This document shows, one piece after another, positions 11,304 through 56,062 of a stretch of 64,000 nucleotides of DNA. The position numbers and the translations under genes are program-made. Numbering within the stretch: the first letter of the stretch is position 1; every line of letters begins with the position of its first letter. Under the pieces are notes generated by a model. That model ran no database searches and had not been told where the DNA came from. It saw only the letters and a list, made by a program, of their open reading frames with translations. This DNA comes from a phage, in sequence record PZ386972.1. One strand, written 5' to 3'.

Positions 11304-11334
11304 ATTTAAACTCCTCTCTCAAATTTATGAATCT

Positions 11335-11363
11335 ATTATACAGAAAAATTTTCCTGAAAGCAA
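11335..11363 (-). promoter_or_regulatory. early promoter (minus strand)
   Basis: Plus strand ATTATA 11335-11340 and AAGCAA 11358-11363. Confidence 0.55.
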
Positions 11364-30265: not shown

Positions 30266-30294
30266 TTGCTTCCGGCTCCAAAATTCTGTATAAT
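30266..30294 (+). promoter_or_regulatory. early promoter
   Basis: TTGCTT 30266-30271, TATAAT 30289-30294. Confidence 0.6.
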
Positions 30295-30334
30295 ATATTC
30301 ATAAATTTGAGAAAACAATAAAAGGAAAACAAAT

Positions 30335-32433: not shown

Positions 32434-32461
32434 TGCTTAAATACTTAAATTTCTGTATAAT
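32434..32461 (+). promoter_or_regulatory. early promoter
   Basis: TTGCTT 32434-32439, TATAAT 32456-32461. Confidence 0.55.
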
Positions 32462-32492
32462 ACTTTCATAAATTAATGAGAGGAAGCGAATT

Positions 32493-32663
32493 ATGAAATC
32501 AGTTGTAATTATTGGTGTTAACACTCGCGGTATTCGTACTACGAAAACTGTTAAAACTTCTAACGTTGCTGAAATCACTACGAACCCTAAAAAGTTTGAT
32601 TTCGCCAAAGTCTCAGCAGTTATGACAGAACAATCTTTTAACCAAGCATTGGGGATGAAATAA
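32493..32663 (+). CDS. hypothetical small protein (56 aa), below the ORF-track size cutoff
   Basis: ATG 10 nt after GAGAGGAAG RBS, directly downstream of promoter 32434-32461; stop overlaps next start. Confidence 0.35.
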   Translation: MKSVVIIGVNTRGIRTTKTVKTSNVAEITTNPKKFDFAKVSAVMTEQSFNQALGMK

Positions 32664-33097
32664 TGGGTACGAATATGCTTCGTGTGCTGCGAGAATTAAT
32701 TGAAAAAGCTCGCAAACACGGTGATACTGTGTCAGTCAAGCACCTTAGTACGATTTTAGGCGACTTACAACGAATTGATAAAGATTGCGTATCTAGACTA
32801 GAGTTTACTAACTGGGTTAAATCACAGTTCAAAGCAATTGAGAATACAATGACTTCTGCTGCAAAAGCAAATATCGAATATACTCCAGATGCTGAATATC
32901 TCGACTTGTTAGCAGGTCTAGAGCATGAATATGCTCTGGAGCAGTTAACTGAAGTTCAGATTCGTGAGTATTTTGCAGAACTGGTTAAATTAAACCCAGG
33001 TATTACCAAAGCTCTATTAATGAAAACTATTAAGGCAGAATTTCCTGGACGTTATGATGGTAAAACAACTGCTTTGATTGCTAGTGAATTTTTCTAA
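32663..33097 (+). CDS. hypothetical protein (144 aa)
   Basis: ORF track. Confidence 0.5.
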   Translation: MGTNMLRVLRELIEKARKHGDTVSVKHLSTILGDLQRIDKDCVSRLEFTNWVKSQFKAIENTMTSAAKANIEYTPDAEYLDLLAGLEHEYALEQLTEVQIREYFAELVKLNPGITKALLMKTIKAEFPGRYDGKTTALIASEFF

Positions 33098-33105
33098 AAA
33101 TTCAT

Positions 33106-33134
33106 TTGCTAAATACTTATAAATTCTGTATAAT
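33106..33134 (+). promoter_or_regulatory. early promoter driving an ~0.8 kb non-coding transcript
   Basis: TTGCTA 33106-33111, TATAAT 33129-33134. Confidence 0.6.
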
Positions 33135-33357
33135 ATATTCATAAATTAGGGAACAGCGAGCCGATTACGCTGAGTGCAGAATCCCAACCGGAGCGCATTG
33201 AATAGAGTCGGTGGGTTAGTTGTAAAACTAGTACACAGGGGGCGGCAATCCCGGTTAGTGGCTAGAACGTGTAAAATGAGGCGTCTGAAACCTCTCCCCT
33301 AAACTCTTCTCTGATTTATAAATAGTGGGGTGTGGAAATCACTTATGTAGTAACACT

Positions 33358-33429
33358 GCCGTCCTAGTATAATTGGTATTATCAAGCCGTAACTGGTGGA
33401 AGATGTAGGTTCGAATCCTACGGTCGGTA
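33358..33429 (+). ncRNA. tRNA-like element with canonical T-arm but no anticodon arm found by hand
   Basis: T-arm GTAGGTTCGAATCCTAC at 33405-33421; 5' segment GCCGTCC pairs to 3' GGTCGGT with one mismatch. Confidence 0.3.
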
Positions 33430-33931
33430 AGAACTGGATAACTGATGCTTTTAACGTAAAAGCTTCCTAGGTTAGTTGCGCACTGCCTAAACCACGCGGT
33501 AGTTGGTTCCAGACTAACCAACCAGTCTGCTGAATAGTTTTATTACGATTTAACTATGTCCAGGCTAAAGAAGAACTTTAGAAGGTATTCTAGGATAGTG
33601 AAGTTCTTTCTCCATATCGGAGTAGTTTTTCAAGCTATCCACAAAGTGGGAAATGCTGACATGAGAGATGTCACTAATGGTGCACAATAGCACAGGTAAT
33701 TCGCGATAACTCCTGTTGAGTAGCAGCAAAAGGTGGGAAGTCATGACCCCAAGCCTAACCGAGTCCTCAATATACCGCAGGACATAACCACTAAGTCACC
33801 CTGACTTAAACTGGAAAATAATAGACGTTACTGTATTTTGTCTTGAAATACTTAATGAGTGAGACTTATGACTCTCCCGGTATCGTCTGTATTTTTAAGA
33901 GTTTTTACGAGAGTTCTTAAAAATACTTAAA

Positions 33932-34006
33932 CGGGGTGTAGTCTAAGGGAGAGGCAGGAGTCTTCTAAATTCCTTTATGCAGGTTCGAATCCTGTCACCT
34001 CGGCCA
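33932..34006 (+). tRNA. tRNA-Arg (anticodon UCU)
   Basis: Acceptor CGGGGTG/CACCTCG; D-stem; anticodon loop CTTCTAA; T-arm GCAGGTTCGAATCCTGT; encoded CCA. Confidence 0.6.
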
Positions 34007-34040
34007 ATTTTATTAACTGTAACTAAAACAAAGGAAATAT

Positions 34041-34988
34041 ATGTTTAATACTAAAAATATGAAAGAACTGACTTCTGAGCAGAAAGTAATTCGTACTATT
34101 AAACGTTGGGGTATTGGTGCTGTAGTTGGTTTAGCAGGCTTGATTCTAGCCTTTAATTCATATACTATTGTTTCTGATGGTACGGTTAAAACTCAAACAT
34201 TCCTGGGTAAAGTAGATCCTAATCCAGTATTGCCGGGTTTCCATCTTGTAAACCCGTTTGCATCTTTCGATACTTTTAGTACAAAAGATATTGCTGTAAA
34301 ATTAGATAAACTTCAGGTTCCTAGTCAGGATAAGTTTAAATCCACTGTTGACCTGACTGTTATGTTGCAATTTGATGGTTCTAAGGCACCGATTAACCGT
34401 ATTAACGCAGGTACTCAGGATCAGGCACTAGACAAGTATGTAACTGAAAAATTACTGTCTACTATTCGTGAGTTTGGTAAGTCTGTACCTAAAGCACAAG
34501 ATTTGTTTGATGCTAAAATTCAGGCTCAATTGCAAACTGCAATTCAACAGGAAGTTGAAGAGTATGCGCGCCCATATGGTTACACAGTTAAGCAGGTATT
34601 CCTTCAGGATATTACCTTGCCGCCAGTAATCATGGAACAGGTACAGAATACCAAAGTTCGTGAAGAGCAAGTTAATGCTGCGAAAGCTGAACTTGCTCGC
34701 GTTGAACAGGAAGCACAGCAAAAAGTTAAACAAGCAGAAGCAGATCGTGAAGCTCGTAACAACCAAGCTATTGCTAATGAACGTGACGCAGATGCTAAAC
34801 TGTACGCAGCTAAGAAAGAAGCTGAAGCTAACGCCGCATTGCAACGTACCATTACTCCTGAAATGATTCGTTGGAAACAACTGGAAGTTGAAATGATCCG
34901 TGCTCAGAAGTATCAAGGTGGTGTACCTCAGACTGTGGTAGGTACTGGCTACGATGGTCAAATGATCATGGATATGCGTAATAAATAA
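34041..34988 (+). CDS. SPFH/band-7 (stomatin/prohibitin-like) membrane protein
   Basis: 315 aa; N-terminal TM helix; SPFH-like core (GFHLVNPF...); C-terminal Ala/Glu/Lys-rich coiled coil. Confidence 0.55.
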   Translation: MFNTKNMKELTSEQKVIRTIKRWGIGAVVGLAGLILAFNSYTIVSDGTVKTQTFLGKVDPNPVLPGFHLVNPFASFDTFSTKDIAVKLDKLQVPSQDKFKSTVDLTVMLQFDGSKAPINRINAGTQDQALDKYVTEKLLSTIREFGKSVPKAQDLFDAKIQAQLQTAIQQEVEEYARPYGYTVKQVFLQDITLPPVIMEQVQNTKVREEQVNAAKAELARVEQEAQQKVKQAEADREARNNQAIANERDADAKLYAAKKEAEANAALQRTITPEMIRWKQLEVEMIRAQKYQGGVPQTVVGTGYDGQMIMDMRNK

Positions 34989-35013
34989 TACCCGCATGTA
35001 ACATCTGAAGTAA

Positions 35014-35046
35014 GCCCTGCGTTTCCTGGAGAGCGCAGGGCTTTTC
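35014..35046 (+). terminator. rho-independent terminator
   Basis: Hairpin GCCCTGCGTTTCCTGGAGAGCGCAGGGC followed by TTTTCT. Confidence 0.6.
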
Positions 35047-35719: not shown

Positions 35720-35797
35720 GGTTCTCAAGCTCATATGGTATGAGCACCCGGCTCATAACCGGAAGGTACGTAGGTTCGAATCCTCGGGGAGCCACCA
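35720..35797 (+). tRNA. tRNA with CAU anticodon (Met, fMet or Ile2)
   Basis: Acceptor GGTTCTC/GGGAGCC; D-arm GCTC/GAGC; anticodon loop CTCATAA; weak T-stem; CCA. Confidence 0.5.
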
Positions 35798-56001: not shown

Positions 56002-56030
56002 TTGCTTTAAGCCTTAAAATTCTGTATAAT
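56002..56030 (+). promoter_or_regulatory. early promoter
   Basis: TTGCTT 56002-56007, TATAAT 56025-56030. Confidence 0.6.
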
Positions 56031-56062
56031 AAGTTCATAAATTAATGAGAGAGGAAATTCTA

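What the first reader, a model, noticed from the sequence alone, without database searches (positions are those of the whole stretch)
33135..33931. Promoter-driven ~0.8 kb structured non-coding transcript ahead of tRNA-Arg
A canonical early promoter (33106-33134) fires into about 800 nt with no ORF of 60 aa or more on the plus strand. The stretch is full of stable hairpins (for example CAGACT...AGTCTG at 33509-33535 and GAAGAACTT...AAGTTCTTC at 33568-33612) and one tRNA-like T-arm (33405-33421) that lacks a foldable anticodon arm, and it ends in a clean tRNA-Arg(UCU). This looks like one or more stable small RNAs co-transcribed with the tRNA, not a leader.
Basis: partly seen in the sequence, partly recalled or inferred. 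Interest (0 to 1): 0.65.

Follow-up and report, generated by a model that had tools for sequence, protein, structure and literature searches.

The report
Phage T5 long structured RNA "RNAX"
The 0.8-kb gene-free stretch is the already annotated but never explained "RNAX" stable RNA of T5-like phages, and comparison with relatives shows it is a large, folded non-coding RNA with a built-in tRNA-shaped module at the head of the phage's tRNA gene cluster.

Summary
A sigma-70 promoter (33106-33134) is followed by about 790 nt with no coding signal, a tRNA-like element (33358-33429) and tRNA-Arg(UCU) (33932-34006). The window is a Tequintavirus. GenBank records for T5, phage 5 and DT571/2 already annotate this interval as misc_RNA "rnaX / RNAX, stable RNA with unknown functions", downstream of "promoter P16-17". 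The feature is therefore known; its function is not.

New here:
- RNAX homologues occupy the same position in Tequintavirus, Epseptimavirus, Sugarlandvirus, Hongcheonvirus, Novosibvirus and Priunavirus.
- They show invariant short motifs between variable helices.
- Two alignments give strong covariation: 93.5% and 94.2% of cells paired, against 19-42% in slid controls; 22 of 39 and 19 of 33 pairs change on both sides.

The tRNA-like cloverleaf caps a 14-bp irregular stem. It lacks a usable anticodon arm and a CCA end, and some relatives have a plain hairpin in its place. An invariant hairpin loop carries the palindrome GUCAUGAC.

No Rfam family matches apart from tRNA.

My reading is a trans-acting folded RNA, analogous in context to GOLLD and ROOL. 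Its function remains inferred.

The parts
33106..33134 (+). Sigma-70 early promoter (TTGCTA, 17-nt spacer, TATAAT). It is the homologue of T5 'promoter P16-17'. The inferred +1 is A33141.
   Evidence: Consensus scan gives 10 of 12 matches. It is annotated as promoter P16-17 in AJ604531 and AY543070. The stretch from -10 to +7 is repeated at other promoter-like sites in the window. The +1 position is inferred from spacing and from my own knowledge of T5 early promoters.
33141..33931 (+). RNAX, a long non-coding structured RNA. The GenBank misc_RNA 'rnaX' of phage 5 maps to window 33147-33931.
   Evidence: 99.2% identical to AJ604531, where rnaX is annotated. T5 and DT571/2 carry the same annotation. 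No coding signal. Covariation supports folding.
33141..33153 (+). 5' strand of helix P1. It pairs with 33305-33317.
   Evidence: A 12-13 bp duplex is kept in 20 distinct variants. It holds whether the enclosed domain is about 6 nt (T5, DT571/2) or 150-200 nt. One variant has the compensatory change GAGA/UCUC to GAUG/CAUC. The single-sequence MFE fold predicts the same helix.
33154..33304 (+). Optional 5' domain. It contains the hairpin CAGCG...CGCUG (33154-33172), the motif UGAAUAGAGUCGGUGGGUU, and the hairpin GAGG...CCUC (about 33278-33294).
   Evidence: T5 and DT571/2 lack window 33153-33301. In smaug an HNH endonuclease ORF takes its place. It is present, with compensatory changes, in Epseptimavirus, Klebsiella, Pectobacterium and Proteus phages.
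33305..33317 (+). 3' strand of helix P1.
33327..33357 (+). Conserved junction motif GGGGUGUSGAA, followed by the 5' strand of a long irregular stem (AUCA, UUAU, UAGU, CU) that ends in AACACUG.
   Evidence: Alignment A2 has invariant columns here. Helix 1 is 99.8% paired, and 7 of its 12 pairs change on both sides. RNAalifold recovers it independently.
33358..33429 (+). tRNA-like cloverleaf module with acceptor, D and T arms. The 'anticodon' arm is a 3-bp stem with a 6-nt loop, and no CCA is encoded.
   Evidence: Rfam tRNA 35.5 bits; not called by ARAGORN. The acceptor and T stems covary. The arm varies in length between relatives. The whole module is replaced by a hairpin in L061, L062 and in Proteus and Providencia phages.
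33430..33446 (+). 3' strand of the long stem (AG, ACUG, AUAA, UGAU), including the motif GAUAACUG.
33447..33463 (+). Hairpin GCUUUUA-ACG-UAAAAGC.
   Evidence: 3 of its 7 pairs change on both sides; for example one pair is UA in 19, AU in 10 and CG in 6 sequences.
33464..33636 (+). Variable central region.
   Evidence: It aligns poorly between Tequintavirus and Epseptimavirus or Klebsiella phages. The named hairpins have z = -1.5 and -0.04. No compensatory changes were seen.
33637..33820 (+). 3' domain. Covarying hairpins lie at 33657-33673, 33680-33693, 33694-33714, 33731-33756 and 33763-33783. The invariant hairpin AGUCA-CCC-UGACU is at 33794-33806. Invariant motifs are AGUGGGAAA, AUAACCAC and UAAACUGGAA.
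   Evidence: In alignment A3, 94.2% of cells are paired against 19-39% in slid controls; 19 of 33 pairs change on both sides; 0 of 500 shuffles reach this. RNAalifold partly recovers the structure independently.
33740..33747 (+). Invariant self-complementary loop sequence GUCAUGAC, at the tip of a covarying stem.
   Evidence: The columns G-AGTCATGACC are invariant in 28 distinct sequences while the flanking stems vary. Proteus phages keep it in a GGG/CCC-closed hairpin at a different position.
33889..33926 (+). Terminal 17-bp AU-rich hairpin, 5 nt upstream of tRNA-Arg.
   Evidence: MFE -12.5 kcal/mol, z = -3.65. It is 88-93% identical in Klebsiella, Epseptimavirus and Pectobacterium phages. 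Klebsiella phages carry one compensatory U-A to C-G change. No U-tract follows it, so it is not terminator-like.
33932..34006 (+). tRNA-Arg(UCU) with an encoded CCA. It is co-transcribed, and its maturation would release the 3' end of RNAX.
   Evidence: ARAGORN and Rfam, 49.3 bits. The release step is inferred.
34041..34988 (+). SPFH/Band 7 membrane protein gene, the downstream member of the same transcription unit.
   Evidence: ORF listed. Pfam Band_7, E = 2e-17.
35012..35043 (+). First intrinsic terminator downstream of the promoter.
   Evidence: 13-bp stem followed by a T-run. Annotated as bidirectional terminator ter1 in phage 5.

Best explanation
Window 33141-33931 (+) is the gene for RNAX, the long 'stable RNA with unknown functions' already annotated in phage T5 and its relatives.

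Shown:
- It does not code for protein.
- Host sigma-70 RNA polymerase can start at a consensus early promoter, and no terminator precedes tRNA-Arg. RNAX, tRNA-Arg and the SPFH gene therefore form one transcription unit ending at 35012-35043.
- RNAX is conserved in six Demerecviridae lineages as a modular fold: (a) stem P1, which encloses an optional 5' domain; (b) a 14-bp irregular stem capped by a tRNA-shaped but non-decoding cloverleaf; (c) a 3' domain of covarying hairpins joined by invariant single-stranded motifs, one hairpin presenting the invariant palindrome GUCAUGAC in its loop; (d) a strongly conserved 17-bp AU-rich terminal hairpin.

Inferred:
- Maturation of tRNA-Arg (RNase P at its 5' end), possibly with RNase III cleavage in the terminal hairpin, frees RNAX from the polycistronic transcript.
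- RNAX then persists and acts in trans as a folded RNA scaffold or decoy. It is not an mRNA, not a leader, and not a source of a working tRNA.
- The tRNA-like module would give it a tRNA elbow that tRNA-binding factors can recognise.
- The palindromic loop would allow RNAX-RNAX kissing contacts.

In genomic context, size and modularity it behaves like the GOLLD and ROOL RNAs that sit beside phage tRNA islands, but it is not detectably homologous to them.

Approximate probabilities: identity as RNAX and non-coding structured RNA, about 0.9; stand-alone trans-acting RNA, about 0.6; self-association or tRNA-factor decoy mechanism, about 0.2.
For: - Identity: 99.2% identical over 911 nt to AJ604531, which annotates rnaX, promoter P16-17 and tRNA-Arg. 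T5 AY543070 and DT571/2 carry the same annotation.
- Non-coding.
- Transcription unit.
- Expression: Bas33 (97% identical) RNA-seq gives TPM of about 1900-2500 for the interval equivalent to window 33543-33744 at 20 min after infection, comparable to neighbouring early genes (PMC13250531 Dataset S1).
- Conservation across Tequintavirus, Epseptimavirus, Sugarlandvirus, Hongcheonvirus, Novosibvirus and Priunavirus. The adjoining SleB protein is only 49-67% identical at the amino-acid level in these lineages.
- Covariation: in A2, 93.5% of cells are paired against 33-42% when slid, and 22 of 39 pairs change on both sides. In A3, 94.2% against 19-39%, and 19 of 33 pairs. RNAalifold independently recovers the main helices. 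P1 is kept in 20 variants.
- Strand: five pairs in A2 have G-U or U-G as the commonest type. These would be A-C mismatches in an RNA read from the other strand.
- Independence from tRNA-Arg: ORFs lie between RNAX and tRNA-Arg in Klebsiella, Providencia and 26175V phages.
- Context analogy: GOLLD and ROOL are phage or prophage RNAs near tRNA islands, tRNAs sometimes sit in the GOLLD linker, and both form homo-oligomers (PMC12286853, PMC5737381).
Against: - I found no experimental paper on RNAX. 'Stable RNA' rests on a GenBank note alone.
- The Bas33 counts are not strand-specific. The two short annotated 'genes' over the 5' part have very low counts (42-83 reads). This may be a counting artefact, because those genes are shorter than the reads, but it could also mean the 5' part is not stable.
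- The whole-region fold is no more stable than shuffled sequence.
- The 5' domain and the tRNA-like module are each dispensable in some natural relatives, so neither can be essential to the core function.
- Providencia-type RNAs lack the palindrome.
- Proteus and Providencia phages lack the T5-type 3' half, so the 'family' may be a mosaic of separable modules.
- No GOLLD or ROOL model match was found.
- The sequences are phylogenetically clustered, so shuffle-based covariation statistics overstate significance; the slid controls are the fairer comparison.
Confidence: 0.55

Rival explanations
1. RNAX is a precursor. RNase P, RNase E and RNase III cut it into several small stable RNAs, including a roughly 72-nt tRNA-like RNA, and each acts on its own.
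For: - T5 annotates many small stable and tRNA-like RNAs elsewhere in the tRNA region: RNAI, RNAIII, RNAIV, RNA1, RNA2, RNA3 and RNA2H.
- The tRNA-like element scores above the Rfam tRNA gathering threshold.
- Read counts within RNAX in Bas33 are very uneven.
- Modules are gained, lost and moved independently between lineages.
Against: - The acceptor stem continues into a 14-bp paired extension that is 99.8% conserved as pairs. This is unfavourable for RNase P and points to a structural role inside a larger fold.
- The cloverleaf is swapped for a plain hairpin in some phages while the supporting stem stays.
- Invariant single-stranded junction motifs link the hairpins.
- The uneven counts can be explained by annotated genes shorter than the read length.
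Confidence: 0.2
2. RNAX is a cis-acting leader or processing platform. Its only role is to control synthesis, processing or Rho-resistance of the downstream tRNA-Arg and SPFH gene.
For: - It is co-transcribed with tRNA-Arg and the SPFH gene, with no intervening terminator.
- The highly conserved terminal hairpin lies 5 nt upstream of tRNA-Arg.
- Heavy folding would protect a long untranslated RNA from Rho (inference).
Against: - It is 640-1330 nt of covarying structure with invariant loops, far more than a leader needs.
- It is conserved where one or two ORFs separate it from tRNA-Arg, in Klebsiella, Providencia and 26175V phages.
- The other 21 tRNAs in the cluster have no such leader.
Confidence: 0.12
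3. The interval is evolutionary debris: decayed tRNA genes and homing-endonuclease scars that are transcribed only because they lie downstream of a promoter.
For: - It contains a degenerate tRNA.
- The T5 tRNA region is rich in HNH endonucleases and indels.
- Length varies between strains (683-1372 nt from promoter to terminal hairpin).
Against: - Motifs are invariant, and compensatory substitutions are maintained, across subfamilies whose neighbouring proteins are only about 50-67% identical.
- Indels fall at helix tips and leave the helices intact.
Confidence: 0.04
4. The region encodes small proteins, as annotated in some genomes (for example bas33_0080 to bas33_0082), or a minus-strand transcript.
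For: - Several GenBank records annotate 40-66 aa hypothetical ORFs here.
- The Bas33 RNA-seq is not strand-specific.
Against: - The ORFs are not conserved.
- tblastn hits fall in several overlapping frames on both strands, as expected for nucleotide-level conservation.
- There is no codon periodicity, and frame-breaking indels occur.
- Abundant G-U pairs fit only the plus-strand RNA.
Confidence: 0.03

Closest known systems
RNAX (misc_RNA rnaX) of bacteriophage T5, phage 5 and DT571/2 (GenBank AY543070, AJ604531, KM979355)
   Same: - Same locus: between promoter P16-17 and tRNA-Arg(UCU), downstream of T5.081.
- 96-99% nucleotide identity.
- Same motifs and helices.
   Different: - The window has the 149-nt 5' domain that T5 and DT571/2 lack.
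- The window lacks T5's roughly 85-nt duplication near the 3' end.
- The database entries give only 'stable RNA with unknown functions'. They describe no structure, no family and no function.
GOLLD RNA (RF01998) and ROOL RNA (RF03087)
   Same: - Large RNAs (about 580 to over 800 nt) with many helices.
- Encoded by phages and prophages next to tRNA islands.
- tRNAs sometimes sit inside the GOLLD linker.
- A variable 5' part and a better conserved 3' part.
- Function unknown (PMC12286853, PMC5737381).
   Different: - No match to either covariance model, even at E <= 10 with permissive filters.
- Different conserved motifs.
- Hosts are Enterobacterales-infecting lytic siphoviruses (Demerecviridae).
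- Cage-like self-assembly is untested for RNAX.
tRNA (RF00005) and viral or bacterial tRNA-like structures, including T5's own 'tRNA-like stable RNAs' RNA1, RNA2 and RNA3
   Same: - Acceptor, D and T arms with a GGUUCGAAUCC T-loop.
- Scores above the Rfam tRNA gathering threshold.
- Lies within a phage tRNA cluster.
   Different: - No 5-bp stem with 7-nt loop as an anticodon arm.
- No encoded CCA.
- A conserved U-U mismatch in the acceptor stem.
- Its 5' and 3' flanks are paired into a 14-bp stem.
- It is embedded in a much larger RNA and is replaceable by a hairpin.
Bacterial Y RNA-like YrlA (tRNA-mimicking module on a long stem); comparison from my own knowledge
   Same: A non-coding RNA that combines a long stem formed by distant segments with a tRNA-mimicking domain. 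It occurs in enterobacteria and some phages.
   Different: - No Rfam Y RNA or YrlA match.
- No rsr/Ro gene in the neighbourhood.
- RNAX is 5-10 times larger.
- Here the long stem extends the acceptor stem.

Membership tests
T5 RNAX (GenBank misc_RNA rnaX) | Located between early promoter P16-17 and tRNA-Arg(UCU), downstream of the T5.081 homologue. | tested here: met
   Promoter at 33106-33134, tRNA-Arg at 33932-34006, T5.081 homologue at 32663-33097. The same order is annotated in AJ604531, AY543070 and KM979355.
T5 RNAX (GenBank misc_RNA rnaX) | Sequence homology to the annotated rnaX. | tested here: met
   99.2% identical over 911 nt to AJ604531. 96% identical to DT571/2 outside the 149-nt indel. 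The core model R1 scores 180.8 bits on T5 and 180.2 bits on the window.
T5 RNAX (GenBank misc_RNA rnaX) | Accumulates as a stable RNA in infected cells. | tested here: inconclusive
   Only indirect evidence. A published Bas33 RNA-seq table shows TPM of about 1900-2500 over window-equivalent 33543-33744. It is not strand-specific, and counts over the 5' part are low, possibly as an artefact.
tRNA (RF00005) | Cloverleaf scoring at or above the Rfam gathering score. | tested here: met
   35.5 bits against a gathering score of 29 at 33358-33429.
tRNA (RF00005) | Canonical anticodon arm (5-bp stem, 7-nt loop) giving a readable anticodon. | tested here: not met
   In the Rfam alignment, 18 unaligned nt replace the arm. 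ARAGORN makes no call in the window. Relatives have a 3-4 bp stem with a 6-nt loop, a long extended arm, or a 6-bp stem with a 3-nt loop.
tRNA (RF00005) | Free acceptor end with a 3' CCA (encoded in the other tRNA examined here) and a single-stranded 5' leader for RNase P. | tested here: not met
   The 3' side reads GGUCGGUAAGAAC with no CCA, whereas tRNA-Arg encodes CCA. The flanks form a 14-bp stem that is 99.8% paired.
GOLLD (RF01998) / ROOL (RF03087) | Match to the family covariance model. | tested here: not met
   No hit at E <= 10 in window 32500-34500, and none at E <= 1 in eight relatives' loci.
GOLLD (RF01998) / ROOL (RF03087) | Large multi-helix RNA encoded by a phage or prophage next to a tRNA island. 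| tested here: met
   RNAX is 638-1327 nt and lies at the upstream edge of a 22-tRNA cluster. Family properties are taken from PMC12286853 and PMC5737381.
GOLLD (RF01998) / ROOL (RF03087) | Homo-oligomeric cage assembly. | not testable with these tools
   There is only a hint: the invariant self-complementary loop GUCAUGAC.
tmRNA | tRNA-like domain plus a tag-peptide reading frame. | tested here: not met
   ARAGORN finds no tmRNA in the window. There is no Rfam tmRNA hit.
Y RNA / YrlA | Match to Rfam Y RNA-type models, and linkage to rsr (Ro). | tested here: not met
   No Rfam hit. The neighbours are SleB, T5.081 and an SPFH protein.

The most novel reading that the evidence does not exclude
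RNAX would be the founding member of a third family of giant 'ornate' phage RNAs attached to tRNA islands, after GOLLD and ROOL. In this reading it self-associates through its invariant palindromic loop GUCAUGAC. It displays a tRNA-shaped module that recruits or titrates host tRNA-binding or tRNA-cleaving factors, for example defence nucleases or processing enzymes, during T5 infection. Because T5 and E. coli are a fully tractable pair, this would make the long-standing question of what such RNAs do directly testable.
Probability: 0.2. Interest if true: 0.8.

Novelty: already known. Interest (0 to 1): 0.5.

Why it matters
It is absent from Rfam. In many newer T5-like genomes it is left blank, called a pseudo-tRNA or tRNA-Sec, or filled with spurious small ORFs.

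Three things follow from showing that it is a covariation-supported, multi-domain RNA conserved across Demerecviridae:
1. These annotations can be corrected.
2. A seed alignment and model are available for a new RNA family.
3. A classical, genetically tractable phage-host pair (T5 or Bas33 with E. coli K-12) becomes a model for large structured RNAs placed beside phage tRNA clusters. The function of that class (GOLLD, ROOL) is still unknown.

It also bears on current work on T5 tRNAs as counter-defence factors (PARIS, retrons).

Tried and rejected
- **Rfam scans.** I ran permissive-threshold (E-value) scans of the region and of eight relatives, plus a gathering-threshold scan of the whole window. 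Only tRNA matched. GOLLD, ROOL, OLE, tmRNA, Y RNA, riboswitch and intron models did not.
- **Thermodynamics.** Whole-region and per-hairpin z-scores are unremarkable except for the terminal hairpin (z = -3.65) and the 33657-73 hairpin (z = -2.2). Stability is not the evidence for structure.
- **Coding tests.** ORF length against shuffles, tblastn of all open frames, and codon-position periodicity all rejected coding.
- **Long-range helices.** A search of a trimmed 17-sequence alignment found nothing convincing beyond the long stem under the tRNA-like module. RNAalifold proposes GUGG (33646-49) pairing with CCAC (33788-91), but both are invariant, so this is untestable.
- **Homologues outside Demerecviridae.** Degenerate motif scans found only T5-like phages in IMG/VR (28-33 loci) and in metagenomes (10 loci), and nothing in 185,579 bacterial and archaeal genomes.
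- **Aeromonas phage AhSzq-1.** It has an ~800-nt gap without annotated genes near clpP, but neither nhmmer nor the CM matched there.
- **Literature.** Searches for RNAX or T5 stable RNAs found no paper on this RNA.
- **Bas33 expression table.** The apparent 100-fold drop over the 5' part is uninterpretable, because those annotated genes (129 and 138 nt) are shorter than the 150-nt reads.
No compensatory changes were seen. For 33500-33535 the MFE fold prefers the alternative GUUGGUU/AACCAAC pairing.
Full report
**What the window is.** ARAGORN finds 22 tRNA genes on the plus strand between 33932 and 44330. The 911 nt around the finding are 95-99.7% identical to more than 200 T5-like phage genomes. 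The window is therefore the tRNA region of a Tequintavirus (Demerecviridae).

**Check of the observation.**
- The promoter scan finds TTGCTA-17-TATAAT at 33106-33134, matching 10 of 12 positions.
- Between it and 33931 the longest plus-strand ORF with a start codon is 44 aa.
- Rfam finds tRNA-Arg at 33932-34003 (49.3 bits). It also finds a second, weaker tRNA match at 33358-33429 (35.5 bits; gathering score 29), in which 18 unaligned nt replace the anticodon arm. ARAGORN does not call this second element.
- The statistical framing needs correcting in two ways. A 76-aa longest stop-free run equals the shuffle expectation of 80 +/- 21 aa. The region also folds no better than shuffled sequence: z = -0.77 on the plus strand and -0.56 on the minus strand. 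The two named hairpins have z = -1.5 and -0.04.

**It is already annotated.** Three GenBank records mark exactly this interval as misc_RNA "rnaX / RNAX: stable RNA with unknown functions":
- AJ604531 (bacteriophage 5 tRNA gene region), 99.2% identical to the window;
- AY543070 (T5);
- KM979355 (DT571/2).

In all three it follows "promoter P16-17" and precedes tRNA-Arg. T5 annotates seven further small stable or tRNA-like RNAs in the tRNA region; RNAX, at 719 nt in T5, is by far the largest. Other records leave the interval blank, call the inner element tRNA-OTHER or tRNA-Sec, or place 40-66 aa hypothetical ORFs in it. I found no paper describing RNAX.

**Non-coding, plus strand.**
- Substitutions between the window and two Epseptimaviruses show no codon periodicity (p = 0.59 and 0.85).
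- Ten to sixteen indels have lengths that are not a multiple of three.
- The adjacent CDS (T5.081 homologue) shows clear periodicity (p = 0.004 and 6e-8) and only in-frame indels.
- tblastn matches of the window's open frames fall in overlapping frames on both strands, as expected for nucleotide-level conservation.
- Many conserved pairs are G-U, which only the plus-strand RNA can form.

**Transcription unit.** No terminator-like site lies on the plus strand before 35012-35043 (annotated as terminator ter1 in phage 5). RNAX, tRNA-Arg and the SPFH/Band 7 gene (34041-34988; Pfam E = 2e-17) are therefore probably one unit. A published RNA-seq table for Bas33 (97% identical) gives TPM of about 1900-2500 for the interval equivalent to window 33543-33744 at 20 min, similar to neighbouring early genes. 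The data are not strand-specific. The very low counts for the two upstream annotated "genes" (129 and 138 nt) may only reflect genes shorter than the 150-nt reads.

**Conservation beyond close relatives.** A homologous ORF-poor interval lies at the same place, downstream of the SleB-type hydrolase region and upstream of tRNA-Arg, in:
- Epseptimavirus;
- Klebsiella Sugarlandvirus, 1310-1372 nt;
- Pectobacterium DU_PP_V, Mccorquodalevirinae;
- Proteus Novosibvirus;
- Providencia Priunavirus.

The SleB protein is only 49-67% identical in these lineages, yet RNAX retains blocks of 83-93% nucleotide identity. Alignments show invariant short motifs separated by variable helices and insertions. The motifs are GGGGUGUSGAA, AACACUG, GAUAACUG, AGUGGGAAA, GGAGUCAUGACC, AUAACCAC, AGUCACCYUGACU and UAAACUGGAA. 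Motif scans found the RNA only in T5-like phages and metagenomic contigs, and in none of 185,579 bacterial or archaeal genomes.

**Structure: 5' end.**
- P1 pairs the first 13 nt (33141-33153) with 33305-33317.
- It is kept in 20 distinct variants, whether it encloses about 6 nt (T5, DT571/2) or 150-200 nt.
- One variant carries a compensatory change, GAGA/UCUC to GAUG/CAUC.
- The enclosed 5' domain is thus an optional insertion. In phage smaug an HNH endonuclease ORF takes its place.

**Structure: stem and tRNA-like module (alignment A2).** A2 holds 35 distinct sequences covering window 33321-33475.
- The segments AUCA/UUAU/UAGU/CU (33338-33357) pair with AG/ACUG/AUAA/UGAU (33430-33446). Together they form a 14-bp irregular stem that continues into the acceptor stem of the tRNA-like cloverleaf.
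- A hairpin at 33447-33463 follows.
- For this structure, 93.5% of cells are standard pairs against 33-42% when partners are slid by 1-3 columns. Twenty-two of 39 pairs change on both sides, and no shuffle of 500 reaches the observed values.
- RNAalifold recovers the long stem and the hairpin independently, and the single-sequence MFE fold agrees.
- The "anticodon" arm is a 3-4 bp stem with a 6-nt loop in most phages. It is a long two-part arm in Klebsiella phages and a 6-bp stem with a 3-nt loop in Pectobacterium.
- The whole cloverleaf is replaced by a plain hairpin in two Epseptimaviruses and in Proteus and Providencia phages, while the supporting stem is retained.
- No CCA is encoded. The module is therefore a structural tRNA mimic, not a decoding tRNA.

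**Structure: 3' domain (alignment A3).** A3 holds 28 distinct sequences covering window 33637-33820.
- Nine helices give 94.2% paired cells against 19-39% when slid, and 19 of 33 pairs change on both sides. RNAalifold partly recovers them.
- One covarying stem (33731-33756) presents an invariant loop containing the self-complementary GUCAUGAC (33740-33747).
- Proteus phages keep this hairpin at a different position; Providencia-type RNAs lack it.
- The same GUCA/UGAC half-sites form the invariant hairpin at 33794-33806.

**Structure: terminal hairpin.** A 17-bp AU-rich hairpin (33889-33926; z = -3.65) ends the RNA 5 nt before tRNA-Arg. It is 88-93% identical across subfamilies, including its loop. 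No U-tract follows it, so it looks like a recognition or processing site rather than a terminator. An RNase III site is my inference.

**Model search.** A covariance model of the stem plus cloverleaf block (R1) finds exactly one full-length copy per genome. It scores 180 bits in the window and in T5, 113 in Pectobacterium phages, and 72-82 in Proteus- and Providencia-type phages. It finds none in Aeromonas phage AhSzq-1.

**Interpretation.**

*Shown:*
- a non-coding, plus-strand, promoter-proximal, multi-domain RNA gene with covariation-supported helices;
- conservation across Demerecviridae;
- identity with the annotated RNAX.

*Inferred:*
- RNAX is released from the operon transcript by maturation of tRNA-Arg and perhaps by cleavage in the terminal hairpin.
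- It acts in trans as a folded scaffold or decoy.
- Its tRNA-shaped module offers an elbow for tRNA-binding factors.
- The palindromic loop offers a self-pairing contact.

The closest functional analogues are GOLLD and ROOL. These are large phage or prophage RNAs beside tRNA islands; tRNAs sometimes sit in the GOLLD linker; both assemble into homo-oligomeric cages; their function is unknown (PMC12286853, PMC5737381). RNAX does not match their Rfam models. It is therefore not a member of either family. The resemblance is one of context and style only.

**Rivals.**
- *Precursor of several small RNAs.* This is possible. The paired stem under the cloverleaf and the invariant junction motifs argue against it.
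- *Pure cis leader.* This is unlikely, because RNAX is conserved where ORFs separate it from tRNA-Arg.
- *Debris, small-protein genes or a minus-strand RNA.* Covariation, the lack of codon periodicity and the G-U pairs count against these.

**Verdict.**
- The feature is already known as T5 RNAX but remains uncharacterised and absent from Rfam.
- I rate interest as moderate. The existence of the RNA is not new. However, the evidence that a model coliphage carries a conserved 0.65-1.3 kb structured RNA with an embedded tRNA mimic makes an open question experimentally approachable.

Noticed in passing
window 35720-35794 (+): Rfam finds a tRNA here (40.3 bits), directly after tRNA-Ser(GCU). ARAGORN does not list it. 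The position corresponds to T5 tRNA-Ile2(CAU).
   Followed up: partly
L007 717-1199 (Salmonella phage smaug); also L036/L058: A 160-aa HNH_3 homing-endonuclease ORF (Pfam E = 1.2e-11) sits between promoter P16-17 and the RNAX core, where the 5' domain would be. Phage 26175V (L005 1805-2314) has a 169-aa ORF with no Pfam match between the terminal hairpin and tRNA-Arg.
   Followed up: partly
window 33153-33301; L001, L026 (T5), L020, L053: The 149-nt 5' domain is a presence/absence polymorphism within Tequintavirus. T5 and DT571/2 close helix P1 with a small loop instead. T5 and contig L074 also carry a roughly 85-nt duplication of the AGUCA...UGACU hairpin plus the UAAACUGGAA motif.
   Followed up: yes
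L075 8487-8656; L080 711-855; L061/L062: Variants of the tRNA-like module are exchanged between lineages. A Tequintavirus-like metagenomic contig (L075) carries the Klebsiella-type long 'anticodon' arm. L080 has a 10-nt deletion in the D-arm. L061 and L062 have a different hairpin in the same closing stem.
   Followed up: partly
window 33740-33747 and 33794-33806: The invariant palindromic loop GUCAUGAC is complementary to both arms (GUCA and UGAC) of the invariant downstream hairpin AGUCA-CCC-UGACU. This allows either RNA-RNA kissing or an alternative intramolecular pairing. I have no explanation for it.
   Followed up: no
window 33121-33147; also 30281-30307, 56017-56044, 32438-32475 and 11322-11345 (-): The promoter segment from -10 to +7, including the transcript start AUAAAUU, recurs exactly or nearly so at several other places. 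These probably mark further T5-type early promoters. Part of the conservation of the P1 5' strand may therefore be a promoter constraint.
   Followed up: no
L081 2442-3198 (Proteus phage 2); L083 about 1218-1900 (Providencia PR1); L087: Novosibvirus and Priunavirus RNAs share the 5' hairpin, the GAAUAGA.. and UAAACUC motifs, and the GGGUGUGUCGAA-stem-GAUAACUG block. They lack the T5-type 3' half. They place a T-arm-containing mini tRNA-like element (Providencia) or the GUCAUGAC hairpin (Proteus) upstream of that block instead. The family looks like a mosaic of movable modules.
   Followed up: partly
MZ501074 (Bas33) genes bas33_0080 to bas33_0082, equivalent to window 33174-33302, 33396-33533 and 33543-33744: Small hypothetical ORFs annotated inside RNAX in several genomes are probably spurious. 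In the published RNA-seq table they give wildly different counts (42-83 reads against 9575 reads). This may simply reflect genes shorter than the reads.
   Followed up: partly
L082 3044-3844 (Aeromonas phage AhSzq-1): An ~800-nt gap without annotated genes lies next to clpP in a more distant Demerecviridae member. It shows no detectable similarity to RNAX by nhmmer or by the covariance model.
   Followed up: partly
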